64,000 bases of DNA from Candidatus Vogelbacteria bacterium RIFOXYD1_FULL_46_19 (GCA_001824825.1 MHTK01000006.1:57051-121050); one strand, 5' to 3'; positions 8,921-53,803 are shown, numbered from the stretch's first letter. Notes: generated by a model not told the origin, from the letters alone. Made by a program: numbers and translations.

Positions 8921-10066
8921 ATGTCACCACTCTTTCAGTCAAAAATAAAAAATGGGCCCCTGATTGTTTTAGAAATTGGCGGTGGCAGTGTGTCGGCCTT
9001 AGTCTTGGCCGACGAGGGATTACCCGAGCGCTCTTTAGTTTGGTCACGTCGCGAACCGCTAGCGTTTGGCAGTCACGAAGATTTTTCCCAGTACTTTCGC
9101 GACACGCTAAAAGTGTTAGACTCCTTACTCAACCAAATCAATCATTTCCACCTAGGCGAGATGGCGGCCGTTCATTGCCTCCTGGCGTCGCCTTGGCATG
9201 TGGCCGAGAGCCGTATCTTAACAGCTAATTGGCCACAACCCCTGTCTGTTACCCCTAAAATTATTGCCAATATGACGGCTCAAAACTTGGCCCGTCACCA
9301 AGCTCGCTTTAAATCAGATGACTTCGAGTTGGCTTTAATTGACGACGTGATCGTCAAAACAGAACTAGATGGTCGGGTATCTAGCAATGTCGACGGTCAA
9401 AAGGCTAGCCAACTAGCGATTACTCATTTCACCAGCAGTACTGACCGCCGCATCCTACAGAAACTGCGAGAAAAAATTAGCCCCCGACTCCACTATCAAG
9501 ATCCCCGTTTTCACTCCAACTTGTTATCTAATTTTGCAGTTACCAAAGCTGCTCTACCCAACCGCGAGAGTTTTATTTTACTGGATGTGAGTGGGGAGTT
9601 GACTGATGTCACTGTGGTATATAATGACAGCATCAGGGGGTTAGCCTCATTCCCGATGGGTAAATATACTATAGCAAGGATGCTAGCCGAAAAATTAGGC
9701 AGTAACCCGAGTGAGATTTATTCTTCTTTAAAGCTAAAGGCTGAGAAAATGCTGGATTTAAAGCATGAACGAGTGTTAGACCGAGCCCTGGAGCCCTTGC
9801 GCCTAGAGTGGCAATATTTACTGGCAGAAACTTTAAAACCCCTAGAGCGGCCTGGTGAACATTTGCCGGTAGTGGTAATCGGCGATGATACTATTTCTCT
9901 AACCATTGGAGAGTGGGCTAAGTCAAGTGCTACGGACAGGCTAGTTACTCACCCAACGGTAACCGACCATGACTATTATGCCGATCTCTGTCATAACTGC
10001 CGTCCCCAGACCAAAGATGTACCTATTTTAATCTCTTCTTTGTTTGCTAACAAATTTTTGATATAA
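8921..10066 (+). CDS. hypothetical protein with a possible actin-like ATPase fold (FtsA/PilM-like), divergent
   Basis: Two glycine-rich phosphate-like segments, IVLEIGGGSVSALV and ILLDVSGELTDVTVV, spaced as in actin/Hsp70-superfamily proteins. Confidence 0.4.
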   Translation: MSPLFQSKIKNGPLIVLEIGGGSVSALVLADEGLPERSLVWSRREPLAFGSHEDFSQYFRDTLKVLDSLLNQINHFHLGEMAAVHCLLASPWHVAESRILTANWPQPLSVTPKIIANMTAQNLARHQARFKSDDFELALIDDVIVKTELDGRVSSNVDGQKASQLAITHFTSSTDRRILQKLREKISPRLHYQDPRFHSNLLSNFAVTKAALPNRESFILLDVSGELTDVTVVYNDSIRGLASFPMGKYTIARMLAEKLGSNPSEIYSSLKLKAEKMLDLKHERVLDRALEPLRLEWQYLLAETLKPLERPGEHLPVVVIGDDTISLTIGEWAKSSATDRLVTHPTVTDHDYYADLCHNCRPQTKDVPILISSLFANKFLI

Positions 10067-44531: not shown

Positions 44532-45350
44532 CTAGAGAATCCGCACCATCACCCCGTTACGTTGAGGACTATCCCCGTAAGTGTGGGAAAAGAAGGTTCT
44601 CGACCCACTCGCGTCTTGCTTGCAAGCACTGCAACCTGAATCCAGCTGGAGTTGGTCAAACCCACCCAACTTGACGTTGATATCTAATATCAAAGCCCCG
44701 AGATCTACCGCGACGAAAGCTGGTTGGACTGCGGCCCGAGGCCCTTTAGAAACCCGCCGGTCAAGCAGTAAGGCGCCCGGATATTGACGCCGTACTAACT
44801 CAAGCATTTCGCTGCCTGGCGGATAGCCATAGCAACAGGCTCCGATTCCCAGCCCAGCCCAAAAAGCTAAACGACTAGCTCGCTCGCCCATCAGCTCGAT
44901 CGCCCGCTCAATGATGTTAGGTGAGCCATTAAGCTCAAGTAGACAACGTAAGCCCAAGTGAAGCAAGCATCCTCGCCCGGTCTGGGGACTAAATAGTATC
45001 CCCACTGGGCAATCGGCATTACAAATACCAGCACCCAAACCGCCGGCTACCAGTAGGCAGCCATCGGCGGGCCGAATCGGCTGAAGCAATAAATAATGGT
45101 TCTCCAATTCGCGAGGGCCAATTGAAGCGTGATTAAAGTGATCACTATTGGGGTTAACGATCTGGTGCGTAAACAGGGGTTCGGGCACCACACAGTTGAC
45201 CTTCAGGCGGTTAATGAGGGCCAAGACCCGCCCTAAGTTATGAGCCGGGCGCCGTTGAGGAGTCAGATGGCCTTTAAGGGCGTGATCTCCTTCCGTCTGG
45301 CCCCCAATCACCATTTGCACTCGGCCATCAAAAATTTCTCTTAGCACCAT
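44532..45350 (-). CDS. pgeF: YfiH/PgeF-family (DUF152) purine-nucleoside phosphorylase/laccase-domain protein
   Basis: NADCPVGILF..QTGRGCLLH resembles the ADC.PV....AHAGWRG core. Confidence 0.65.
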   Translation of the reverse strand: MVLREIFDGRVQMVIGGQTEGDHALKGHLTPQRRPAHNLGRVLALINRLKVNCVVPEPLFTHQIVNPNSDHFNHASIGPRELENHYLLLQPIRPADGCLLVAGGLGAGICNADCPVGILFSPQTGRGCLLHLGLRCLLELNGSPNIIERAIELMGERASRLAFWAGLGIGACCYGYPPGSEMLELVRRQYPGALLLDRRVSKGPRAAVQPAFVAVDLGALILDINVKLGGFDQLQLDSGCSACKQDASGSRTFFSHTYGDSPQRNGVMVRIL

Positions 45351-45772: not shown

Positions 45773-45883
45773 ACCTCAGTATTGTACTAAAATAGCTTAA
45801 AAATGCAAGGTCCAGGCTATTAGAGGTGATGTTTTTCAGCTCAGTTGAGCTATAATTGGAGTAGTTGGTCTAGGGAGGGTCAA

Positions 45884-46090
45884 ATGATGAGAAAAGCCCT
45901 GATTTATAGTGCGCTCACCTTGGTTCTAGTTACCTTTGGGACGGCGGTCATAAATTGGTACTATTTTGCCATCCGTACCCTAGAGTGGGAGGAAGACCTG
46001 GTCATAATTTTTGTGCCCGTGTTGGCCATTGTCCTCTTGTGGTGCCTCGTCATTCTGCCCCTGGTCGCCCGGCTCACCCCGAAGTCATAG
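45884..46090 (+). CDS. small hypothetical membrane protein (two TM helices)
   Basis: ORF with an internal ATG start, MMRKALIYSALTLVLV. Confidence 0.35.
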   Translation: MMRKALIYSALTLVLVTFGTAVINWYYFAIRTLEWEEDLVIIFVPVLAIVLLWCLVILPLVARLTPKS

Positions 46091-46132: not shown

Positions 46133-47215
46133 CTACTCTTCTAAATCCGGTTTATCCAAGCGGAGCACTTCTATCCCACCGCCTTCGCCGGTAATACGCA
46201 CCACGTCTTTATCGATTTTCTTAAACTCCTTATAGGCATTATTGTAGTGGCTAACCGTCGTCCCCAAAGACCCGCCAATTTTTTGCATAAACGAGTCATA
46301 GACACTGAGGTGTTTACCCAACTCCCCTACCCGCTGCCGTATTTCCTTGGCCGATTCTTCTATTTGTAAGGCCTTCAAACCTTGCAGGACGGTTTGTAAA
46401 TAAGCTAAAAAGGAGGTCGGTGACACAATAATGACGTGATACTTCGCCGCCGCTCGCTGAATCAAATTTTCGGTTTCGCCGTGAATCGCCCCCACTTTAT
46501 TGACCAGCAAATCGTAATAAATCGCCTCGTGAGGAATAAACATAAAAGCAAAGTCCAGTGTACCTTCGTTCGGCCGAATATACTTACCCGTCTCCTGGAT
46601 GCGCATTTTCAAATCACTTAAGAATATCTTTTCCAGTTTTTCCCGCTCGGCCGGATTTTTTTCTTCATTGATACGGTTGTAATTTTCCAAACTGAATTTT
46701 GAATCAACCGGAATAACTTTATCTTTAATGAAAACGGCCGCATCCACAATCTCTCCGTCGGCAAACTTATACTGCATTTCGAAACTACCCGGGGGCAACA
46801 CATTTTTCAACAAGGTTTCCAAGTAATACTCCCCCAGAATTCCTCGCTGTTTGGGATTTTTTAAAATGTCTTGTAAATCCCGTAATTGGTCGGTAAAGTT
46901 CATCACCTGCTTATTGGTCTCATCGAGCTTGGTTAGGCGCTCTGTCACATCCTGGATAATTTTAACCGACTCGGCAAACTGCCCTCGCATCGATTCTTGC
47001 ATAAACTTTGACGACTCTTTAAGCTCAGTACGCACGTGACCCATCCGATCGTCAAGAAGACGTGTCAGTTCATTCATTTGGTTTTGTAGCATCATAAACG
47101 ACTGGCCACTGGCCTCGGTCGTAGCACCCAATTTTGACTTCGCTAAGAAGCGCCAGCCAATAAAGACGACTAGTAAGCCGCCAACTACCCCTATCATCAG
47201 ATAAGTTATTTCCAT
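46133..47215 (-). CDS. rmuC: DNA recombination protein RmuC
   Basis: N-terminal TM helix, coiled coil and the RmuC C-terminal domain pattern. Confidence 0.8.
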   Translation of the reverse strand: MEITYLMIGVVGGLLVVFIGWRFLAKSKLGATTEASGQSFMMLQNQMNELTRLLDDRMGHVRTELKESSKFMQESMRGQFAESVKIIQDVTERLTKLDETNKQVMNFTDQLRDLQDILKNPKQRGILGEYYLETLLKNVLPPGSFEMQYKFADGEIVDAAVFIKDKVIPVDSKFSLENYNRINEEKNPAEREKLEKIFLSDLKMRIQETGKYIRPNEGTLDFAFMFIPHEAIYYDLLVNKVGAIHGETENLIQRAAAKYHVIIVSPTSFLAYLQTVLQGLKALQIEESAKEIRQRVGELGKHLSVYDSFMQKIGGSLGTTVSHYNNAYKEFKKIDKDVVRITGEGGGIEVLRLDKPDLEE

Positions 47216-47447
47216 ACCGCTTTATTATATCAATGAGTCAGCAAAAAAAATAGAGCTCGACCGAGACTTGTTTTCGCTAAATTCTTATCAAATGAAACAA
47301 TTGACACCATAAACTTCATCCGTTAAAGTAAAATAATGTTAAAGCTTGGAACTAATCAGGGTAACTATTTTGGTTTTTGGTTTACCCCTACCCCAACGAG
47401 GGGGGCCCTTTTTAGTTACTGAGAGTGAGAATCAGTTTCAGAAATTA

Positions 47448-47475
47448 AAAAGAGCTCCCCTCCCGGGGAGTTTTT
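47448..47475. terminator. bidirectional hairpin
   Basis: A-run, then ctcccc-tccc-ggggag, then a T-run. Confidence 0.5.
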
Positions 47476-47516
47476 ATTTGATTAGGTCTTTGGATAACCA
47501 ATAGGAGAACTAGATT

Positions 47517-47804
47517 ATGGTGCAAAGCACGGGTGAATTACTGAAAAGCCATACGACCGCCTTGGAGGAAGCTTTTCGGCAAGTCGGTACCGATACCAGT
47601 CAGGACATCACTTACAAAGTCCTCGCTTGGCTCGCTGCCGAGCTACCGCCCGGATCGGATTTACAAGCAGAAAAGGTCGAGCAACTGGTCCAGCGGGTGA
47701 CTCGTCATATGGGTAGTGGAGAAGGCAAGGCCGCCACTTTGATTTACCAAATCAATCACCTGTTTAGTCGCACCCCCGAAGCCACCACTCGTCGAGCGGT
47801 TTAG
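47517..47804 (+). CDS. hypothetical protein (95 aa)
   Basis: ORF closed by a strong terminator at 47819-47848. Confidence 0.4.
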   Translation: MVQSTGELLKSHTTALEEAFRQVGTDTSQDITYKVLAWLAAELPPGSDLQAEKVEQLVQRVTRHMGSGEGKAATLIYQINHLFSRTPEATTRRAV

Positions 47805-47818
47805 GCTGTCTCCCCCAC

Positions 47819-47848
47819 CCCCCGGTCGCAAGGCGATCGGGGGTTTTA
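47819..47848. terminator. bidirectional terminator between convergent genes
   Basis: 11-bp G/C stem (cccccggtcgc-aag-gcgatcggggg) followed by tttt. Confidence 0.7.
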
Positions 47849-47850
47849 TT

Positions 47851-48201
47851 TTACATTTCATGAGATTCTGACCGCTCTAAATTATCCAACAGGTCCATAA
47901 TTTTCTGGTACAAATCAGAGCAACCTTCTTGATCAGCCTGACAGCGGGCATCCTCTAAACACTCTAGAGCCCCCTCTCGATCACCAGCCGCTAGATATAG
48001 CTCGACTCTAGCCATCGTAAATCTAATTTCCGGCTCTGGGCGGGGTAAACTTAAAACCACTTGTTCTTGAATTACTGTCCACCCATTGATAGCTGTCAGC
48101 ACTTCAGCATCTCCTAAGCCTTTTTCTTGGATCAGCTTTATTAAAGTGGCTGGAACTTCGATTGGTGAACTTTTTGACTCCCGGTTGGGAAAATTTTCCA
48201 T
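47851..48201 (-). CDS. hypothetical protein (116 aa, GC-rich)
   Basis: ORF with its own TATAAT upstream on the minus strand. Confidence 0.4.
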   Translation of the reverse strand: MENFPNRESKSSPIEVPATLIKLIQEKGLGDAEVLTAINGWTVIQEQVVLSLPRPEPEIRFTMARVELYLAAGDREGALECLEDARCQADQEGCSDLYQKIMDLLDNLERSESHEM

Positions 48202-48333
48202 AAATTAATTATAAATTAAAATATCTCATAATTATTCAAGCGACTTTTGACCCCTTTCACTGCTTCCCTTTGTACATGTTTTAGTATAACAGAAGTTGCC
48301 AGAATAAGTTGAGGGTAAGAAATTAAGAAAAAG

Positions 48334-48362
48334 AGGCCCCGGCGCGATAAGCGTCGGGGCCT
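48334..48362 (-). terminator. terminator for the 425-aa gene
   Basis: aggccccg...cggggcct with a T-run on the minus strand. Confidence 0.6.
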
Positions 48363-48380
48363 GAATCAGCAAACATTGCA

Positions 48381-49658
48381 TCAAAGAGCAAACGGTCGGC
48401 AGACCTTCTTCTTTAGCTCTTGGAAGCGCAGACGGAAGGTACGTCGACTGACCGGGAGCTCTGAAACAATGACGGGTAGTTGCCGGTCCCCAGGACAAAC
48501 GAGTTCCTGGAGGGAGACCGTAAAATACTCGTCCTCTCGACGTTTCCGCGCCGCTTCCCGCTCTTCCTTCAATTTTTCCGCTCTCTGGAGCTGTCTGTGG
48601 TGATAGTCGGGATCGTAGAGATATTTTGCCAGCTTGTAGGCCGCGATGATCCCCACGACTACCAGGACCAGCAAGTAAAGCCAGGCTTCTACAACAAGCC
48701 AAGAGACTGCCATACCCAGCCAGGCACCGATAGCCGACACGAAGCCCCAATAAGCCCAAACACTAGCTGCGACTCCCGCGACCGCGAGCCAAAGACAAGG
48801 ATGCAGGAACAGAAACAAGGAGTTTCTTTTATTTCCCTCCTTGTCTCTAAGTACAAGATTGTTCCTTGGATGCCAATACATCGTGGTGGGCGGGTCCCAT
48901 ACATCTTCAAACCGGTATGTCCAGATTCGAAAGACCGGCGCAAACTTCCAGTAGCGCCGTGCCGTCAGAATGGTGAACAGAAGAGCGGTCAAACGTATTG
49001 GACATTTGACGGCAAAGATGAGCGGAACCAGGACGAACTGCAAGGTGTAGGCGAAGATCCGCCGACGTCGATAGGCACACTGGTCAACCGGCTTACGGGA
49101 GAAGAGCAGATTGACCCACTTCTTTTCCCACTCGGGCGGTTCAGGCGCGAAGAATTCGGCCCCGACTTCGACGTTGACACTTGCGACATCTAACAGATAT
49201 TTAAGACGACAATCTATCTGAGGGATGTTCAAGAGGGACAACTCGTCGTTCCCGTCGTAAAGATTGTACGTTGGTACACCATTTGCTTCCTTAGAAGCGA
49301 AGGCCTGCCGTAGACGTTGTTTACCCGATTTTGAGCGGTCCTCTCGAGGATGACCCCAATCATCCTCACACCAAACGACGAATGCGTTCAACGTGTGGGT
49401 GCCGGCTCGACGCAGGCGGATATACTCCATGGCCCGATCAATCGGGAACATGTGTCTGTCCACCTCTCTGTCTCCATAGACCACCGAGATGACGACGTGG
49501 ATGTTTTGCGCGTTTCTCTTCCTCAACTCCTCCCAGTCTCCTGGGCACAGGCACCACCGGACCGGAAAAACCGGATCAACCAATGACTTCGTATTGTCGA
49601 CGAACAAGCGTAACATACTGCCTCCTTCTGCAATTTTCTGCCATGTCAAACAACACAC
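48381..49658 (-). CDS. hypothetical membrane protein (about 190-aa N-terminal soluble domain, then at least three TM helices, then a charged coiled-coil C-terminus); GC-rich
   Basis: Long ORF with an own terminator and own upstream region; I recognise no family. Confidence 0.5.
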   Translation of the reverse strand: MCCLTWQKIAEGGSMLRLFVDNTKSLVDPVFPVRWCLCPGDWEELRKRNAQNIHVVISVVYGDREVDRHMFPIDRAMEYIRLRRAGTHTLNAFVVWCEDDWGHPREDRSKSGKQRLRQAFASKEANGVPTYNLYDGNDELSLLNIPQIDCRLKYLLDVASVNVEVGAEFFAPEPPEWEKKWVNLLFSRKPVDQCAYRRRRIFAYTLQFVLVPLIFAVKCPIRLTALLFTILTARRYWKFAPVFRIWTYRFEDVWDPPTTMYWHPRNNLVLRDKEGNKRNSLFLFLHPCLWLAVAGVAASVWAYWGFVSAIGAWLGMAVSWLVVEAWLYLLVLVVVGIIAAYKLAKYLYDPDYHHRQLQRAEKLKEEREAARKRREDEYFTVSLQELVCPGDRQLPVIVSELPVSRRTFRLRFQELKKKVCRPFAL

Positions 49659-49806
49659 TACTAGCAGTATATCACAGTCGTAGTAAAAGTCAAGCTGTGC
49701 AATTGATAGAGAAAAAGAGCTCAGTTGGGCAGTTTTTTAAGAACGTTGAGTGTGGATACTTAGTTGCACAACGACGCCTTACGATCGAAGGTGGACAACA
49801 CCGTCC

Positions 49807-50343
49807 TTATACGAATGACGTATGATGGACCTGTGAGAAATCTTGTGAACCAGATTCAGGTGAATCACTAATTTTAATATATTTTTTGCTCGCAAAGTAA
49901 AATACAACGACTGTTAATATTAAACCGGCCAATTCTGCACCGTAAACTGCGAGTTCTAAATTTACTATTTCTCCTTCCATATCTCCTACAGCTGTTAAGA
50001 TTGATTCAACATACACTAAGATACTTAACGCAGTTAGAGTAGTGGCTATATTTATAACTTTTCGTATATCTTTAAGTATAAAATATTTATTTACACGACG
50101 AGATGATAATTTTACTCCAAGCCATATGGCCAAAACCGGAACAATAATATATCCAATCATTGTTAAGCTTGGGGTTAGCCAGGTACAAATTGATTGGCTT
50201 ATTAAACCGCCAAATCCACAATCTAAATATAAATACCCTGTTAAAGCTGTATAAATAAGCTGAAAAATAACAGCAATAATTCCCGCTACAAACCAATGAG
50301 ATGCTGCGATTCGCCAAGCTGAATATTCTTTCTTTGTTTTCAT
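49807..50343 (-). CDS. hypothetical polytopic membrane protein; AT-rich coding sequence
   Basis: Five or six hydrophobic helices; composition differs sharply from the flanking genes. Confidence 0.45.
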   Translation of the reverse strand: MKTKKEYSAWRIAASHWFVAGIIAVIFQLIYTALTGYLYLDCGFGGLISQSICTWLTPSLTMIGYIIVPVLAIWLGVKLSSRRVNKYFILKDIRKVINIATTLTALSILVYVESILTAVGDMEGEIVNLELAVYGAELAGLILTVVVFYFASKKYIKISDSPESGSQDFSQVHHTSFV

Positions 50344-50523
50344 CTACTTTATTTAATGAATAAATAATATCTTTACTAGCCACTTCGTCTAAGGCTAGTA
50401 TATACCTTATATTTAAAAAAATATAGTAGGGCTAAACACCTCAAGGAAGTGCTTCGCACTCAAAATTTATGTGGTCGACAATAATTTGTTTTTCGTCAAA
50501 ACTAGAAATCTAATATAAATAAC

Positions 50524-50871
50524 CTACTTATAGATTATGGACTTATGGTATTTTTCTTGAAAATGCGTTAATTCTTTAATCTCATCGATAGTGTAGTCCT
50601 CCCCTGCCGACACAATTAATTTTATTTCCCCATCACCTTCCCTCTTAATTCCAGCAATCACTACTCCTTCAAACTCAGCAAGGGCTATCTTGGGTCCAAA
50701 AACATAAGCATCGATTTCCTCTTGATCAGCCTCAGATATAGTTCCTGGAATATAGCCATAGTTGATCGGATAAATAGTGGTAAAGCGCGGGTCCGGATGC
50801 TTTGAGCCTAATGGCCTGTCCATTACTACTTTCACTTTTTTACCAAGCCAAATTTTAATTTCAGGTAGCAT
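50524..50871 (-). CDS. short, divergent inorganic-pyrophosphatase-like protein (115 aa)
   Basis: YPINYGYIPGT..EADQEEIDAYV aligns to the family I PPase core YPxNYGfIp.T...DGDPlDvlV; the N-terminal active-site region is absent. Confidence 0.45.
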   Translation of the reverse strand: MLPEIKIWLGKKVKVVMDRPLGSKHPDPRFTTIYPINYGYIPGTISEADQEEIDAYVFGPKIALAEFEGVVIAGIKREGDGEIKLIVSAGEDYTIDEIKELTHFQEKYHKSIIYK

Positions 50872-50955
50872 ATGATTGAAAGTTTATTGGTGCGCTTCGC
50901 GCGCAATTTGTTGTGGTCCACAATAATTTACTCGTCGCCACTCGTAAAATTTTGC

Positions 50956-50972
50956 CGACCCCTACCGGGAAT
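50956..50972 (-). repeat. 17-nt copy (one indel) of the 3' end of tRNA-Glu, about 170 bp downstream of the tRNA
   Basis: gacccctaccgggaatc here versus gaccctaccgggaatc at 51141-51156. Confidence 0.6.
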
Positions 50973-51139
50973 CTCCCCCTACGGGGGCGGGTACTTTTCG
51001 GCCAAGACACCTTTACCAGGTGCTTGGCAGCGAAAAGTCTTTCCATTTCCGGACGCAAGACAAGTAGTTGTCTTGCTTAGGGTCACAGCTAGATTTGTAA
51101 AACAAAACCACTCCTTCGGAGTTGTTTTGTTACCAAAAT

Positions 51140-51211
51140 CTACGCTGTGACCCTACCGGGAATCGAACCCGGATTGCCGCCTTGAGAAGGCGATGTCCTA
51201 ACCGTTAGACG
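51140..51211 (-). tRNA. tRNA-Glu (anticodon CUC), 72 nt, CCA not encoded
   Basis: Manual fold: 7-bp acceptor stem with one G-U, D-arm, anticodon loop ttCTCaa, T-arm ccggg-ttcgatt-cccgg, discriminator A. Confidence 0.85.
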
Positions 51212-51376
51212 ATAGGGCCAGAAGGAAGCAATATAGTGTATGAAGTATACTGTATTTAGTATATGAGACTTCCTATACAAAATACCATATACGACATACT
51301 CCATACTATCTCAGTCATCAATTATACGGAAAAATGGCCTAAAATCAAGACAAAAAAACAGTTAAATTTCCTTAAC

Positions 51377-51406
51377 TTGACAAATTGAGCTTATATAGTG
51401 TATAAT
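51377..51406 (+). promoter_or_regulatory. sigma70-like promoter (TTGACA-18-TATAAT)
   Basis: TTGACA at 51377-51382 and TATAAT at 51401-51406. Confidence 0.5.
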
Positions 51407-51515
51407 AAAAAAGGTTTGAACTTCGACAAGATCTGCTGGGGTCCGCCCCTGTATTGCCTGGTCCGCCCAGGGTCAAGCAGATCACCAAGGCGTCTCCGGA
51501 CGCAAGGAGAGAAAG

Positions 51516-52148
51516 ATGAGCCAGGAACCCACCATCGAGACCATGTTTTTTGTCTTTGTATGCGCAGCCCTTGGGCTACTACTGGTGACTATACTCACTG
51601 TTAGGATTCTTTACAGTATTAAAAGATTCCGCCAGCAACGGAAAAACGGCAAATGGTTGATGATTCTATACAACCACAACCAAGAAAGTTTCCTTGCAGC
51701 CCTGGAAAGCCGAGAGATTGCGGTATATAGTCAATTCAATCTCCCTTTATGCCTTGACGAGTTCGGACTTGAGCCATCGGCCAAAGCTTACGGCTCTTGG
51801 CTAAGGTGTCAAGCCAACGACCAGGAGAAATATCACCTGGAATACGGTCCGGAAAATGAGTTTGGTAGTAAAGATTGGGACTTGGACAAAAGATGGGAGT
51901 GGCTACTGAACCACCTGCGTAGGGTTGTCTATGCTTTCAACGGCAACCAGGGCAAGGTCATCAATTTTTGCAACCAAACCTTTAAACGGCACGAGAAGTA
52001 CTGGAATAAACTCTTTGACCTTACTCCTTGGCATAACGAAAATTGGTTGGACAAGGCATTAGACCTTGTGATGTCTAAATATCGAGAGGAAGAAGAGAAA
52101 CGAAGAGTGGCCAGGTTGGTCAACAGAGCCAACCAAGCTCTCAAGTAA
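51516..52148 (+). CDS. hypothetical membrane-anchored protein (210 aa)
   Basis: N-terminal TM helix, a Trp-rich soluble domain and its own terminator. Confidence 0.5.
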   Translation: MSQEPTIETMFFVFVCAALGLLLVTILTVRILYSIKRFRQQRKNGKWLMILYNHNQESFLAALESREIAVYSQFNLPLCLDEFGLEPSAKAYGSWLRCQANDQEKYHLEYGPENEFGSKDWDLDKRWEWLLNHLRRVVYAFNGNQGKVINFCNQTFKRHEKYWNKLFDLTPWHNENWLDKALDLVMSKYREEEEKRRVARLVNRANQALK

Positions 52149-52155
52149 AATAATA

Positions 52156-52193
52156 AGCCCCGGCTTGCACCAAGCAAGCCGGGGCTAAATTTT
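52156..52193 (+). terminator. intrinsic terminator
   Basis: 13-bp stem agccccggcttgc-accaa-gcaagccggggct followed by aaatttt. Confidence 0.7.
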
Positions 52194-52264
52194 CCTCAAG
52201 TTTACAGACGATTGGTTTTATGCTAAAATATAAACAGTAAGATAACCCAAGGAGGGATTCCCTG

Positions 52265-52417
52265 ATGGATATCTCCGGAGCGACAGTCGGGGTGATTGTA
52301 GCTGTCCTAGTGGTAATAGCGCTCTACCTGATCTGGCACATTTGGCAGTGGTGGCGCGACGCACCCAACCCCGAAGCGGAACGAAAGAAGGAAGAGTTTT
52401 GGAAAAGTATTCGCTAG
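52265..52417 (+). CDS. small hypothetical TM protein (50 aa), not in the supplied track
   Basis: AGGAGG RBS 7 nt upstream of the ATG; MDISGATVGVIVAVLVVIALYLIW...; followed by a terminator. Confidence 0.45.
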   Translation: MDISGATVGVIVAVLVVIALYLIWHIWQWWRDAPNPEAERKKEEFWKSIR

Positions 52418-52428
52418 TATTAAACAAC

Positions 52429-52467
52429 CGACCGTCTTTGCCTCAAGCAAAGACGGTCGTATTTTTT
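52429..52467 (+). terminator. intrinsic terminator
   Basis: cgaccgtctttg-cctcaag-caaagacggtcg followed by a 6-nt T-run. Confidence 0.7.
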
Positions 52468-52486
52468 AAAAAGTTTTGTGATAATG

Positions 52487-53803
52487 TTACCGGGCTTTCC
52501 ACTCTGGTTCCTGCCGACACAAAAGTTCCCCCGCCCGTAAGGGTTCAGCCATAACTTCCTCCACCACCCGCTCCAGACGCATCCCCTGAGAACCCTTAAT
52601 TAAAACCAAGTCACCGGATTCAATAAAAGAATCTAAAAATTTCCCAGCCTCCAGTGCTGTGTGGAAACTTTTAATTTGCTCTACCTTCATCCCCCCCTCC
52701 AGAGCCCCCTCCACGATAAACTTGGCTCGCAAGCCCACTGCCACCAAATAGTCTAAAGTCTCCGCGGCCAAGCGACCGGCTTGCCGATGCGCCTCGATGG
52801 TATACTCGCCCAACTCCAACATATCTCCGAGAACGGCCACTTTCCGACCAGCCCCCTCTAACTTGTTTAAAGTCATCAGAGCCGCTTCCAAAGCCGCTGG
52901 CGAAGAATTATAAGTATCATCTAAAAGCATAGCACCTTTAATGCCAAGGATAAGCTTCAAGCGACCAGGCGGCGTCACGAGAGCGGTCTGGATTTCCTCA
53001 GCTACACTTACAATATTCAGCTCGGTGGCTACCCCCACCGCAATCGCCGCCAGGACACAATAAACCTGATGATCTCCCACCACCTCTTTGATCCGAATGG
53101 GAATAATCTGACCATTAGTATTTAACTTAAAAGAAATACCGGCGGGTCGAGTGCGTCCACCGGCTTCTTCATACAAGGTTTGAATATTTGAAGCGTAAAT
53201 ATCAGCCTCTGGACTAAAGCCATAGCTTAAAGTGCGAACTGTTAGTTTCTGGGCCCGCTCCCGCAAAGTTTCATCATCAAAATTATAGATTACAATCCCG
53301 TCTTTTTTTACTCCGTGAACTAGGGCCATTTTTTCCTTCACTACCCCTTCACGATCGGGGAAAAATTCAATATGCACCGGTACTTCCGGGAGACGTGTTA
53401 AAACCCCTATATCCGGCTTAAGCCATTTCATCATTTTACTGATGTCCCCCGGTCGGTCCGCCCCCACCTCAAGCACCAACCACTCCGGATACTTAGTGGG
53501 AAAAAGTAAATCAGAAGCACCAGCTAAAATCACCTTAGTCCAGCCCCAAGGCGACAACCAAGCCGACTTACGGCCCAAGATAGTAAGAGGTAACCCAGTT
53601 TCGCTGTTATAGCTTTTTTCACTTTTACGGACCCGATAAGCTGACGCTAAAATGGTGTAAATTGCATCTTTGGTCGAGGTTTTGCCGACACTGCCCGTCA
53701 CCGCCACAATTTTGGGCCGGTGCTTCCGTAGAAGCCACCTGGCTTCATAGGCTAAAATATTGGAAATAACCTGCTTACACCAACTCTTTAAATTTTGAGT
53801 CAT
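52487..53803 (-). CDS. murF: Mur ligase, MurF-like (UDP-MurNAc-tripeptide:D-Ala-D-Ala ligase)
   Basis: TGSVGKTSTKD P-loop, SYNSETGLPLTIL and the dcw context. Confidence 0.8.
   Translation of the reverse strand: MTQNLKSWCKQVISNILAYEARWLLRKHRPKIVAVTGSVGKTSTKDAIYTILASAYRVRKSEKSYNSETGLPLTILGRKSAWLSPWGWTKVILAGASDLLFPTKYPEWLVLEVGADRPGDISKMMKWLKPDIGVLTRLPEVPVHIEFFPDREGVVKEKMALVHGVKKDGIVIYNFDDETLRERAQKLTVRTLSYGFSPEADIYASNIQTLYEEAGGRTRPAGISFKLNTNGQIIPIRIKEVVGDHQVYCVLAAIAVGVATELNIVSVAEEIQTALVTPPGRLKLILGIKGAMLLDDTYNSSPAALEAALMTLNKLEGAGRKVAVLGDMLELGEYTIEAHRQAGRLAAETLDYLVAVGLRAKFIVEGALEGGMKVEQIKSFHTALEAGKFLDSFIESGDLVLIKGSQGMRLERVVEEVMAEPLRAGELLCRQEPEWKAR

What the first reader, a model, noticed from the sequence alone, without database searches (positions are those of the whole stretch)
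47216..52470. Accessory-looking patch beside tRNA-Glu: isolated hypothetical genes with mosaic GC and a duplicated tRNA 3' end, but no integrase
Between rmuC and murF the gene content changes from conserved housekeeping to eight single-gene units, most with their own promoter or terminator. These are a 95-aa ORF, a 116-aa ORF, a 425-aa membrane protein with a soluble N-domain, an AT-rich polytopic membrane protein, a truncated PPase-like protein, a 210-aa membrane-anchored protein and a 50-aa TM peptide. Composition jumps by eye from GC-rich (47.85-49.66 kb) to AT-rich (49.8-50.5 kb). The patch contains the window's only tRNA and a copy of that tRNA's 3' end. This is the signature of integration into a tRNA followed by decay, or of a hotspot for novel cargo. 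None of the proteins matches a family I can name, so a novel membrane-associated system, for example a defence or abortive-infection function, is possible.
Basis: partly seen in the sequence, partly recalled or inferred. Interest (0 to 1): 0.65.

Follow-up and report, generated by a model that had tools for sequence, protein, structure and literature searches.

The report
Gene-swap hotspot and tRNA-trailing RNA
The patch is a stretch of a tiny groundwater bacterium's genome where single orphan genes come and go even between close strains, and its "duplicated tRNA end" belongs to a widespread, apparently undescribed folded RNA element that sits behind tRNA genes in this bacterial group.

Summary
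Between rmuC and murF lie seven unrelated single-gene units, the window's only tRNA (tRNA-Glu CTC) and a 14-nt copy of its 3' end. GC3 is mosaic, from 0.21 to 0.63.

The genome is a Patescibacteria MAG (Candidatus Vogelbacteria RIFOXYD1_FULL_46_19). In about 20 relatives the order dcw genes - tRNA-Glu - variable DNA - rmuC - L21 - recR is kept. The variable part is 0.5 to 8 kb with unrelated content, and one Vogelbacteria MAG has only murF - tRNA - rmuC.

A close strain (92-93% nt identity) lacks the C411+B116 block and the PPase-like gene and carries another ORF instead. So this is a cassette-level hotspot. I found no integrase, no distal att repeat, no defence-family match and no conserved gene partnership.

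The tRNA-end copy is not an island boundary. It is the 3' strand of the closing helix of a ~140-nt structured element. That element follows at least 11 tRNA types in more than 60 metagenome loci, often in tandem. Three helices covary strongly, and one segment is the reverse complement of the adjoining tRNA's own T-arm. It has no match in Rfam or the searched literature. Its function is unknown, and it is the most interesting part.

The parts
46133..47215 (-). rmuC, conserved right-hand anchor of the variable interval
   Evidence: PF02646, 178 bits. Relatives at 58-74% identity keep it next to L21 and recR.
47517..47804 (+). A95, 95-aa soluble protein with no family. Kept at this position in a close strain, but only 60% aa identical there while the flanks are 92-95% identical.
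   Evidence: Promoter-like TTGACA-17-TAAAGT at 47301-47329 and terminator at 47819-47843.
47851..48201 (-). B116, 116-aa acidic protein with sub-threshold TPR-like hints. Part of the 1.87-kb block absent from strain L235.
48381..49616 (-). C411, membrane protein: N-terminal Ig/FN3-like beta-sandwich, about 4 TM helices, long helices and a conserved C-terminal ..KVCRPF motif. GC-rich (GC3 0.60). Monocistronic.
49807..50343 (-). D178, AT-rich polytopic membrane protein (4 TM-like segments), species-restricted orphan
   Evidence: GC 0.335, GC3 0.212, z -3.6. Only hit is a 95%-identical protein of a close strain. Hydropathy.
50463..50498 (.). Direct repeat copy B, downstream of E115 (palindrome TGTCGACCACA plus GCGAAGC hairpin)
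   Evidence: D1, 36 nt, 75%. Three-way alignment with the single hybrid copy of strain L235.
50524..50871 (-). E115, stand-alone mini PPase-like domain protein. A cassette present here and absent in strain L235.
   Evidence: PF00719 at 31 bits against a cut-off of 23.5, covering profile positions 8-115 of 153. NCBIfam equivalog cut-offs missed by far. 1196 cluster representatives at E <= 1e-3; among the ten top hits scanned, fusions to NUDIX, GNAT, APH, HAD, AAA_18, GrpB and HD. Absent from L235.
50890..50953 (-). Partial 'class 2-prime' RNA unit: hairpin with loop GAGUGGCGACGA, palindrome UUGUGGACCACAA and a GAA-loop hairpin. Includes direct repeat copy A (50905-50940).
   Evidence: Homologous complete units in L054, L033, L086 and L235.
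50953..51094 (-). tRNA-trailing structured element ('class 1' unit). 5' strand: anti-acceptor GUGACCCUA (51087-51079), P2 hairpin (51078-51054), anti-T-arm (51053-51039). Then P3 (51039-50994) and P4 (50987-50975).
   Evidence: CM R2, built from 62 metagenome units without the window, hits at 49.9 bits, E 1e-8, full model length. CM R1. Covariation. No Rfam match at E <= 10.
51095..51146 (-). Long spacer hairpin with an internal terminator-like stem and T run. Together with the tRNA's acceptor 3' strand and the anti-acceptor it forms one near-perfect inverted repeat of about 35 bp.
   Evidence: Read from the sequence. Terminator-like site at 51110-51122.
51147..51219 (-). tRNA-Glu(CTC), conserved landmark of the interval
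   Evidence: ARAGORN and Rfam at 61 bits. A tRNA-Glu lies in the same interval in all 19 relatives whose interval could be delimited, on either strand.
51516..52148 (+). F210, membrane-anchored orphan protein between the tRNA and murF. Perfect TTGACA-18-TATAAT promoter at 51377-51406 and bidirectional terminator at 52156-52186.
   Evidence: Only self-hit among 5.8 billion proteins..
52265..52417 (+). G50, 50-aa single-TM peptide. Bidirectional terminator at 52429-52459, shared with murF.
   Evidence: Weak PHROG membrane-protein hit, E 1.5e-4.
52487..53803 (-). murF-type Mur ligase, last gene of the dcw cluster and left-hand anchor
   Evidence: Mur_ligase_M and Mur_ligase_C. Synteny RsmH-FtsL-PBP-MurF in relatives.

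Best explanation
The interval between the dcw cluster (murF) and rmuC is a hypervariable spot in the genome of a Vogelbacteria-type member of the Patescibacteria. Only tRNA-Glu is stable there.

Shown: single transcription units are gained, lost or replaced one at a time, each with its own promoter and terminator. The seven present in this strain are unrelated accessory or orphan genes of different composition:
- C411, a member of a rare Patescibacteria membrane-protein family.
- D178 and F210, two species-restricted membrane proteins.
- E115, a stand-alone mini PPase-like domain.
- A95 and B116, two small soluble proteins.
- G50, a TM peptide.

They are not one system and not one island.

Inferred: turnover happens by recombination at short repeats and hairpins, not by a tRNA-specific integrase. 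These sites are terminators and the ends of the non-coding RNA units.

The 'duplicated tRNA 3' end' is the 3' strand of the closing helix of a ~140-nt structured unit, most likely transcribed on the tRNA strand. Units of this family follow many tRNA genes in Patescibacteria. Each carries a segment antisense to the adjoining tRNA's acceptor and T-arm 3' strand, three covarying hairpins around conserved joining sequences, and a sense copy of that tRNA end. Units multiply in tandem.

Most likely function, inferred only: a tRNA-end-matched RNA that can pair either with the tRNA's own 3' end or with its own 3' copy. It would act on tRNA 3' processing or read-through, and it spreads by local duplication or conversion between tRNA loci.
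For: Deep synteny:
- In 80 genome loci with RmuC at 58-74% identity, the order RsmH-FtsL-PBP-MurF ... RmuC-L21-RecR recurs.
- In the 13 loci holding both MurF and RmuC in that order the interval is 0.45 to 7.9 kb; six more loci have only the PBP gene upstream.
- A tRNA-Glu is in the interval in all 19 such loci.
- Of the 164 ORFs of at least 50 aa listed in the relatives' intervals (174 listed in all, 10 of them from the window's own contig L001), 14 form a YqeY family, 16 more fall into eight small families, and the rest have no relative in the set. The L001 ORFs match only a C411 homologue in L057 and overlaps of the tRNA.
- tblastn of A-G against all loci finds only C411 homologues.
- The empty state murF - tRNA - rmuC exists in Vogelbacteria MAG L085.

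Strain level:
- Contig L235 is 93% identical over D178 and 92% over the rmuC start.
- It lacks window 47853-49725 (C411+B116) and the E115 segment, has an extra ORF of about 101-113 aa before rmuC, and has different DNA to the left.
- E115 is flanked by a duplication of about 45 nt, of which L235 has one hybrid copy.

Composition: GC3 runs from 0.21 to 0.63 inside the patch.

No system: no PADLOC or NCBIfam match. Apart from E115's PPase domain no Pfam match reaches its curated cut-off. C411 homologues are in four other contexts. The units are monocistronic.

RNA element:
- 15 of 33 pairs (5 sequences) and 23 of 31 pairs (63 sequences) show compensatory changes.
- P2 is 84% paired (shuffle 54%), P3 98% (86%), P4 97% (63%).
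- G-U pairs number 78 against 31 A-C oppositions outside P1a, and P3 folds better on the tRNA strand in 56 of 64 units.
- The pattern occurs in 105 metagenome loci. 64 have a tRNA of one of 11 amino-acid types upstream on the same strand, mostly 44-100 nt away. Arrays have a period of about 152-185 nt.
- The anti-T-stem 5-mer is the exact reverse complement of the adjoining tRNA's T-stem in 34 of 49 units, and within 1 mismatch in 45 of 49. Permutation gives mean 4.2, maximum 12.
- An independent covariance model hits the window at E 1e-8.
- Two units behind different tRNAs on one contig have 99% identical cores.
Against: - The relatives used for deep synteny are distant (different genera or families), so their different content could partly reflect long divergence.
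- Neighbouring intervals also vary. The gap rmuC-L21 runs from 35 nt to 6 kb, and the Cu-oxidase_4 gene between L21 and recR is likewise found in none of them. This locus may simply be the largest of many variable spots.
- The strain comparison rests on one 2.6-kb contig. It cannot tell gain from loss.
- No repeats were seen at the borders of the C411+B116 block, so the recombination mechanism there is unknown.
- For the RNA element, transcription is not shown.
- A terminator-like hairpin usually separates it from the tRNA.
- Both strands of the window copy fold equally well (z -4.6 and -4.5).
- The outer helix P1a is only weakly supported (56% paired against 47% shuffled).
- Helix P1b is only 7 points above its shuffle (85% paired against 78%, shuffle maximum 82%).
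- A DNA-level role (folded recombination site) would also conserve hairpins.
Confidence: 0.62

Rival explanations
1. Decayed tRNA-integrated genomic island. An element integrated into the 3' end of tRNA-Glu through a tyrosine integrase and duplicated the tRNA end. It later lost its integrase and most of its genes, and the present genes are its remnants.
For: A direct repeat of the tRNA 3' end exists. The content is absent from relatives. Composition is atypical for D178 and C411. In relative L018 a 13-nt copy of the tRNA end lies 3.4 kb downstream. Relatives L044, L064 and L018 carry TraG/VirD4-like and restriction-enzyme genes in the interval.
Against: The repeat encloses 174 nt without a gene. 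It is the closing strand of a conserved structured unit also found behind at least 11 tRNA types. There is no second copy anywhere in the 64 kb at up to 3 mismatches in 22 nt. No recombinase domain is present. Cargo lies on both sides of the tRNA. The units differ in composition from each other and vary independently between strains.
Confidence: 0.1
2. The tRNA-trailing units are a non-autonomous mobile element, or the folded attachment site of one. They would target the 3' end of tRNA genes by base pairing or by mimicking the target duplex. Tandem arrays would come from repeated insertion, and the units would then also serve as landing pads for gene cassettes such as E115.
For: Units occur in identical tandem copies, each followed by the same spacer as the tRNA (L180 three copies, L023). 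Copy number differs between near-identical contigs L133 and L153. The same core follows at least 11 different tRNA types, with ends matched to each. Cores are 99% identical behind two different tRNAs on one contig. The antisense and sense segments could fold into a copy of the target duplex, as in CTX-phage attP or integron attC (established knowledge; analogy only). E115 is inserted inside a unit with a duplication of about 45 nt.
Against: No recombinase, transposase or reverse transcriptase was seen next to the units examined. None of 33 pattern matches in viral contigs was confirmed by the covariance model. The excess of G-U over A-C and the conserved single-stranded joiners point to an RNA on one strand. 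No empty and filled sites were compared at nucleotide resolution.
Confidence: 0.3
3. Vertically inherited but fast-evolving core genes. The seven ORFs would be old residents of the locus that have diverged beyond recognition, so their apparent uniqueness reflects search sensitivity and the rapid evolution of small membrane proteins.
For: A95 is kept in place in the close strain yet is only 60% identical while its flanks are 92-95% identical, so very fast divergence does occur here. The protein search needs shared 5-residue words. All contigs with an identical rmuC carry the same genes.
Against: Whole units are present or absent between strains at 92-93% nt identity. The interval length in relatives runs from 0.45 to 8 kb. 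It includes well-annotated unrelated genes: ribonucleotide reductase, GMP synthase, aldehyde dehydrogenase, a SulP transporter. The C411 orthologue at 50% identity lies at another locus. GC3 differs three-fold between neighbours.
Confidence: 0.08
4. A novel membrane-associated defence or abortive-infection module formed by some of the membrane proteins (C411, D178, F210, G50).
For: The location is a variable hotspot. Several genes are membrane proteins of unknown function. The C411 family is sporadic and rare, and conserved Cys and Arg motifs suggest a specific activity. A relative carries a restriction enzyme in the same interval.
Confidence: 0.05

Closest known systems
tRNA-linked genomic islands / integrative elements (integrase-mediated, attL/attR from the tRNA 3' end)
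   Same: Strain-specific genes of atypical composition next to a tRNA gene, with a direct repeat of the tRNA 3' end.
   Different: No integrase. The repeat lies 174 nt away and bounds no genes. Cargo is on both sides of the tRNA. Units vary one gene at a time.
Hypervariable 'plasticity zones' or integration hotspots between conserved core genes (as described in comparative genomics of many bacteria)
   Same: Fixed core flanks (dcw cluster, rmuC-L21-recR), unrelated accessory content in each lineage, and an empty state in some genomes.
   Different: Very small scale (0.5-8 kb, single-gene units) in a reduced genome of about 1 Mb. Most cargo is orphan membrane or small proteins. The hotspot is associated with arrays of a non-coding structured unit.
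Integron gene-cassette arrays / attC sites and CTX-phage folded attP
   Same: Promoter-independent single-gene units. E115 is flanked by imperfect palindromic repeats. The RNA/DNA unit can fold so that an antisense and a sense segment rebuild a duplex copy of the target (tRNA end), with extra hairpins as a variable terminal structure.
   Different: No IntI or Xer-type gene seen. The cassettes here have their own promoters and both orientations. The excess of G-U pairs argues for an RNA. Membership not shown.
tRNA-like RNA structures (mascRNA, viral TLS, YrlA, tmRNA tRNA-like domain)
   Same: The unit's outer helix reproduces the base pairs of the acceptor stem and T stem of a tRNA, and lies next to tRNA genes.
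   Different: The T loop is fully paired to its complement rather than folded. There is no D or anticodon arm equivalent. No Rfam model matches (best YrlA hit 22 bits against a cut-off of 69, and that hit overlaps the tRNA itself). The sequence is matched to the specific neighbouring tRNA.
Family I inorganic pyrophosphatase (PF00719)
   Same: E115 keeps the central YP.NYG.IP...D..D motif region and passes the Pfam cut-off.
   Different: 115 aa instead of about 175, lacking both ends of the fold and several catalytic positions by alignment. It belongs to a separate short-domain family that among the ten top hits scanned is fused to NUDIX, GNAT, APH, HAD or kinase domains.

Membership tests
Integrase-mediated tRNA-integrated genomic island | Tyrosine or serine recombinase gene at one end, next to the tRNA | tested here: not met
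   No recombinase domain in any of the seven proteins (Pfam, NCBIfam, PHROGs). Other ORFs in the patch overlap these genes.
Integrase-mediated tRNA-integrated genomic island | Direct repeats of the tRNA 3' end (attL/attR) flanking the whole island | tested here: not met
   There is a single extra copy 174 nt downstream that encloses no gene. No other copy is in the window at up to 3 mismatches in 22 nt or up to 1 in 14 nt. The copy belongs to a conserved structured unit.
Integrase-mediated tRNA-integrated genomic island | Absent from the same site in related genomes; atypical composition | tested here: met
   (absence). (GC3 outliers D178, C411, G50).
Known anti-phage defence systems (PADLOC-DB 2.0) | At least one protein matching a defence-system HMM | tested here: not met
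   The only match is D178 to a '2 TM CARF' model at 15 bits, E 0.004, over a TM segment.
Multi-gene functional system (any) | Component genes co-occur and are co-oriented or co-transcribed in other genomes | tested here: not met
   C411 homologues sit in four other contexts without A, B or D-G. Strain L235 keeps D178 and A95 without B116, C411 or E115. Units have separate promoters and terminators.
Family I inorganic pyrophosphatase (functional enzyme) | Full-length fold of about 170 aa reaching equivalog score, with the complete set of Mg/PPi-binding residues | tested here: not met
   115 aa. Pfam match covers profile 8-115 of 153 at 31 bits. NCBIfam equivalogs score 30 against 246 and 20 against 200. 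PDB alignments cover only the central region.
Integron cassette array | IntI integrase with attI, and cassettes separated by attC sites | tested here: inconclusive
   No integrase in the patch. E115 is flanked by imperfect palindrome-containing repeats of about 45 nt. No attC model was available, and the other units lack such repeats.
Any Rfam 15 RNA family (for the tRNA-trailing unit) | Covariance-model score at or above the family's gathering threshold | tested here: not met
   Window 50850-51260 and the canonical array in L180, searched at E <= 10. Only the tRNA passes, and nothing covers the unit.
tRNA gene or pseudogene (for the tRNA-trailing unit) | Cloverleaf detected by ARAGORN or the Rfam tRNA model | tested here: not met
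   One tRNA only in the window. The unit has the complement of the T loop, not a T loop.

The most novel reading that the evidence does not exclude
The ~140-190-nt units behind tRNA genes would be a previously undescribed class of structured non-coding element specific to Patescibacteria. Each unit carries both an antisense and a sense copy of the neighbouring tRNA's T-arm and acceptor 3' strand around a conserved three-helix core. Units amplify in tandem and move or convert between different tRNA genes. The class would be either a self-propagating element that targets tRNA 3' ends or a new RNA device controlling tRNA 3' maturation or read-through. Its repeats would seed the cassette turnover seen in this hotspot.
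Probability: 0.4. Interest if true: 0.8.

Novelty: new variant of a known kind. Interest (0 to 1): 0.58.

Why it matters
Patescibacteria have tiny genomes and almost no recognised mobile-element machinery, so how they gain and lose genes is poorly understood. This locus shows turnover of single orphan genes between near-identical strains at a fixed site, with no integrase.

It also links that site to a family of highly structured, tRNA-matched non-coding units. These are common in groundwater and sediment metagenomes but absent from Rfam 15 and from the papers searched here.

If the units are RNAs that sense or pair with tRNA 3' ends, they add a new kind of tRNA-linked regulation. If they are mobile, they are a new type of target-matched non-coding element. 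Both readings can be tested directly with existing metatranscriptomes and simple in vitro assays.

The protein side is less striking. The C411 family is a clean, rare, well-folding membrane-protein family that still needs a function.

Tried and rejected
- Pfam, NCBIfam, PADLOC and PHROGs on all seven proteins. Only the PPase-like domain of E115 is significant.
- Exact-sequence look-up of the 425-aa GTG-start version of C411: not on record. The 411-aa form is the one annotated.
- Searched for a distal tRNA-end repeat to bound an island: none.
- Considered the downstream copy to be a degenerate tandem tRNA or an intron-split tRNA, following the paper on group I introns in Patescibacteria tRNAs (PMC13011429). 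Rejected: the upstream tRNA is complete, the unit contains the complement of the T loop, and no tRNA or group I intron model matches.
- Considered a REP/MITE-like high-copy repeat. Rejected for this window: one copy in 64 kb.
- Considered a leader for the downstream gene. Rejected: the downstream genes differ in every locus.
- Looked for the unit in viral contigs. All 33 pattern matches failed the covariance model.
- From memory, compared the conserved joiners with hammerhead, twister, pistol, hatchet, RNase P, SRP and tmRNA motifs. No convincing resemblance. This was not a formal test beyond Rfam.
- Literature searches for the motif sequences and for tRNA-downstream repeats in Patescibacteria found nothing.

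Full report
**What is there**

The window comes from a Patescibacteria MAG. The 411-aa protein is identical to A2589_01325 of Candidatus Vogelbacteria bacterium RIFOXYD1_FULL_46_19. Identical rmuC contigs occur in several groundwater metagenomes.

I call them A95, B116, C411, D178, E115, F210 and G50. The interval also holds the only tRNA of the window, tRNA-Glu(CTC) at 51147-51219 (-).

- Hydropathy supports the membrane assignments.
- Promoter-like and terminator-like sites are two to three times more frequent than in shuffles and bracket most units.
- The composition mosaic is real at the third codon position. D178 has GC3 0.212, the lowest of 67 ORFs (z -3.6). C411 has 0.603, G50 0.627 and A95 0.552. 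The window mean is 0.454.
- The 14-nt copy of the tRNA 3' end (50960-50973) is real and not expected by chance.

**The proteins**

Pfam, NCBIfam, PADLOC and PHROGs give one significant result: E115 matches the pyrophosphatase domain.

E115 is not a broken gene. An exhaustive HMMER search finds 1196 cluster representatives (540 at E <= 1e-10) that share this ~105-aa domain. They are stand-alone or, among the ten top hits scanned, fused to NUDIX, GNAT, APH, HAD, AAA_18-type kinase, GrpB or HD domains. The closest homologue (76%) follows a kinase gene at an unrelated locus. E115 fails the equivalog thresholds for a true pyrophosphatase and aligns only to the central part of solved enzymes.

F210 and D178 have no relatives outside this species.

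**Synteny, deep**

A scan of one genome per species with RmuC returned 80 loci at 58-74% identity.

- The order RsmH-FtsL-PBP-MurF ... RmuC-L21-RecR recurs. The distance from MurF to RmuC ranges from 0.45 to 7.9 kb.
- A tRNA-Glu lies in that interval in all 19 loci where it could be delimited, on either strand.
- A YqeY gene next to rmuC is present in 14 of them but not in the window.
- Almost everything else is unique to each genome. Examples: ribonucleotide reductase, GMP synthase, aldehyde dehydrogenase, a SulP transporter, a TraG/VirD4-like ATPase, and a restriction enzyme.
- None of A-G is found in any relative, except a C411 homologue in L057.
- L085, also labelled Vogelbacteria, has murF - tRNA-Glu - rmuC with nothing else.
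- Neighbouring gaps (rmuC-L21, L21-recR) also vary. The Cu-oxidase_4 gene of the window is likewise absent from all relatives. The patch is therefore the largest of several variable spots.

**Synteny, shallow**

The only relative of D178 (95% aa) lies on a 2.6-kb contig, L235, from another sample.

- It is 93% identical in nucleotides over D178 and 92% over the rmuC start. Over A95 it is only 74% nt and 60% aa identical.
- It jumps from 80 nt past D178 straight to the A95 terminator. The 1.87-kb block with C411 and B116 (window 47853-49725) is therefore missing.
- It also lacks E115. The window has two diverged copies of a ~45-nt sequence on either side of E115, and L235 has one hybrid copy.
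- L235 has an extra ORF with its own promoter before rmuC, and different DNA further left.

Single transcription units thus differ between strains. This is what a cassette-level hotspot predicts. It is not what a single decayed island or vertical core genes predict.

**The 'duplicated tRNA end'**

When the regions behind tRNA-Glu in the relatives were laid side by side, the copy turned out to be part of a conserved element. A unit has these parts, in order:

1. A long spacer hairpin.
2. A segment that is the reverse complement of the tRNA's acceptor 3' strand.
3. A hairpin, P2.
4. The reverse complement of the tRNA's T-stem 3' strand and T loop (..NNNNNAAUCGAA).
5. A long helix, P3 (GGUUCUCCC.../...GGGAAACC).
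6. A conserved joiner, UGUACUG.
7. A hairpin, P4, with a GUAA or GUAG loop.
8. A sense copy of the tRNA's T-arm and acceptor 3' strand.

Evidence on the element:

- Five tRNA-Glu-linked units gave 15 of 33 pairs with compensatory changes.
- A covariance model found further units behind tRNA-Gln, with ends matched to that tRNA.
- A metagenome scan with a 19-position core pattern (18 specified bases) returned 105 loci. 64 have a tRNA of one of 11 amino-acid types (Gly, Arg, Glu, His, Gln, Leu, Cys, Lys, Val, Ala, Trp) upstream on the same strand, mostly 44-100 nt away. 17 more lie at contig edges. Several loci hold tandem arrays with a period of 152-185 nt.
- On 63 units, 23 of 31 predicted pairs show compensatory changes.
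- In my own count P2, P3 and P4 are 84%, 98% and 97% paired, against 54%, 86% and 63% after shuffling partners. The T-arm helix P1b is 85% against 78%. The acceptor helix P1a is weak at 56% against 47%.
- G-U pairs outnumber A-C oppositions 78 to 31, and P3 folds better on the tRNA strand in 56 of 64 units. This favours an RNA made in the tRNA's direction.
- The 5 nt before AAUCGAA are the exact reverse complement of the adjoining tRNA's T-stem in 34 of 49 units, and within one mismatch in 45. Permuted pairs give a mean of 4.2 and a maximum of 12.
- A model built from 62 metagenome units, without the window, hits window 50953-51094 (-) over its full length at 49.9 bits, E 1e-8.
- Nothing in Rfam 15 matches the window unit or a canonical array. 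Searches of the paper library by motif sequence or by topic found nothing.
- Related shorter units (class 2 and 2-prime) occur in the same arrays. The window retains a partial one at 50890-50953, and this is where E115 is inserted.

**How it most likely works**

Shown:
- The site is variable at deep and shallow time scales.
- The genes are independent units of different origin.
- The tRNA-end copy is part of a structured, tRNA-matched unit.

Inferred:
- Gene turnover uses short repeats and hairpins such as the unit ends, as for E115. It does not use a tRNA integrase.
- The units are RNAs whose antisense segment can pair either with the tRNA's own 3' end or with the unit's 3' copy. In the window the acceptor 3' strand, the spacer and the anti-acceptor form one inverted repeat of about 35 bp. 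That would affect tRNA 3' processing or read-through.
- The alternative is a non-autonomous mobile element or folded attachment site. Identical tandem copies, copy-number differences between near-identical contigs and 99%-identical cores behind two different tRNAs on one contig favour it. No enzyme partner was seen.

I could not decide between these two readings.

**Verdict**

The hotspot reading is supported. The readings as a decayed tRNA island and as a defence system are not.

The protein content is ordinary accessory and orphan material for this phylum, with the C411 family as a tidy unknown. The unexpected part is the tRNA-trailing structured unit. It appears to be undescribed and deserves follow-up.

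Noticed in passing
L019:9030-9260 (relative; tRNA-Glu(CTC) at 9096-9170): The tRNA-Glu(CTC) appears to sit inside an insertion in the anticodon loop of a second, split tRNA-Glu(TTC). The 5' half ends ...CCCUCUUUCA. A 19-nt stem follows (TCCCGCACCTAATCTGGAT / ATCCAGATTAGGTGCGGGA) that encloses the whole CTC tRNA, and then comes the 3' half, ending GGGGCTACCA. This could be a nested tRNA or an unusual intron.
   Followed up: no
window 47301-47516 (+): Between a good promoter (TTGACA-17-TAAAGT) and the A95 start codon lie about 185 nt with two terminator-like hairpins (47398-47410, 47450-47475). This could be an attenuator or a small RNA. The region is 74% conserved in strain L235. No Rfam match in the whole-window scan at gathering thresholds.
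   Followed up: no
window 44532-45350 (-): The Cu-oxidase_4 (PF02578) gene between L21 and recR is GC-rich (0.54, z +2.3). It was found in none of the 80 related loci, so it is another lineage-specific insertion outside the reported patch. The rmuC-L21 gap (35 nt to 6 kb) also varies among relatives.
   Followed up: partly
window, all ORFs; C411 stop at 48381-48383: TGA is a rare stop codon here: 3 of 67 ORFs, one of which is probably spurious. Some public gene calls read through the C411 TGA, giving a 466-aa product on contigs L002-L004. Homologues end at the same ..CRPFA motif, so TGA is a true stop.
   Followed up: partly
L010, L014, L018, L024, L041, L045, L046, L049, L054, L057, L059, L064, L069, L084 (directly upstream of rmuC, opposite strand): A YqeY-family gene of about 150 aa (PF09424) is the usual divergent neighbour of rmuC in 14 of 20 relatives. 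It is missing from this interval in the window, where A95 occupies the position.
   Followed up: partly
L044:5791-8550, L064:5275-8013, L018:7877-9070: Relatives carry mobile-type cargo in the same murF-rmuC interval: a TraG/VirD4-like ATPase of about 915 aa (two genomes) and an NgoFVII-like restriction endonuclease.
   Followed up: no
L023:7630-8645, L180:11960-12420, L133, L146, L195: Tandem arrays of the tRNA-trailing unit reach contig ends or contain assembly gaps (runs of N in L023). Such arrays probably break short-read assemblies, and their length is underestimated.
   Followed up: partly
window 50911-50923 and 50469-50482; also L054, L086, L042, L235: A near-perfect palindrome, TTGTGG(N)CCACAA, is conserved at the 3' end of class 2-prime units in several genomes. 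It looks like a binding site for a dimeric protein, and it lies in the repeat that flanks E115.
   Followed up: partly
window 45845-46090 (+): An 81-aa ORF with two TM segments between L21 and rmuC, seen only in contigs of this species. It is another small orphan membrane gene just outside the patch.
   Followed up: no
L236:2439-3348 (GCA_943350875.1): The closest homologue of E115 is encoded 14 nt after an AAA_18/AAA_33 kinase gene. This matches the kinase-PPase-like fusions seen elsewhere, and suggests that the mini-PPase domain works with a nucleotide-using partner that the window copy lacks.
   Followed up: no
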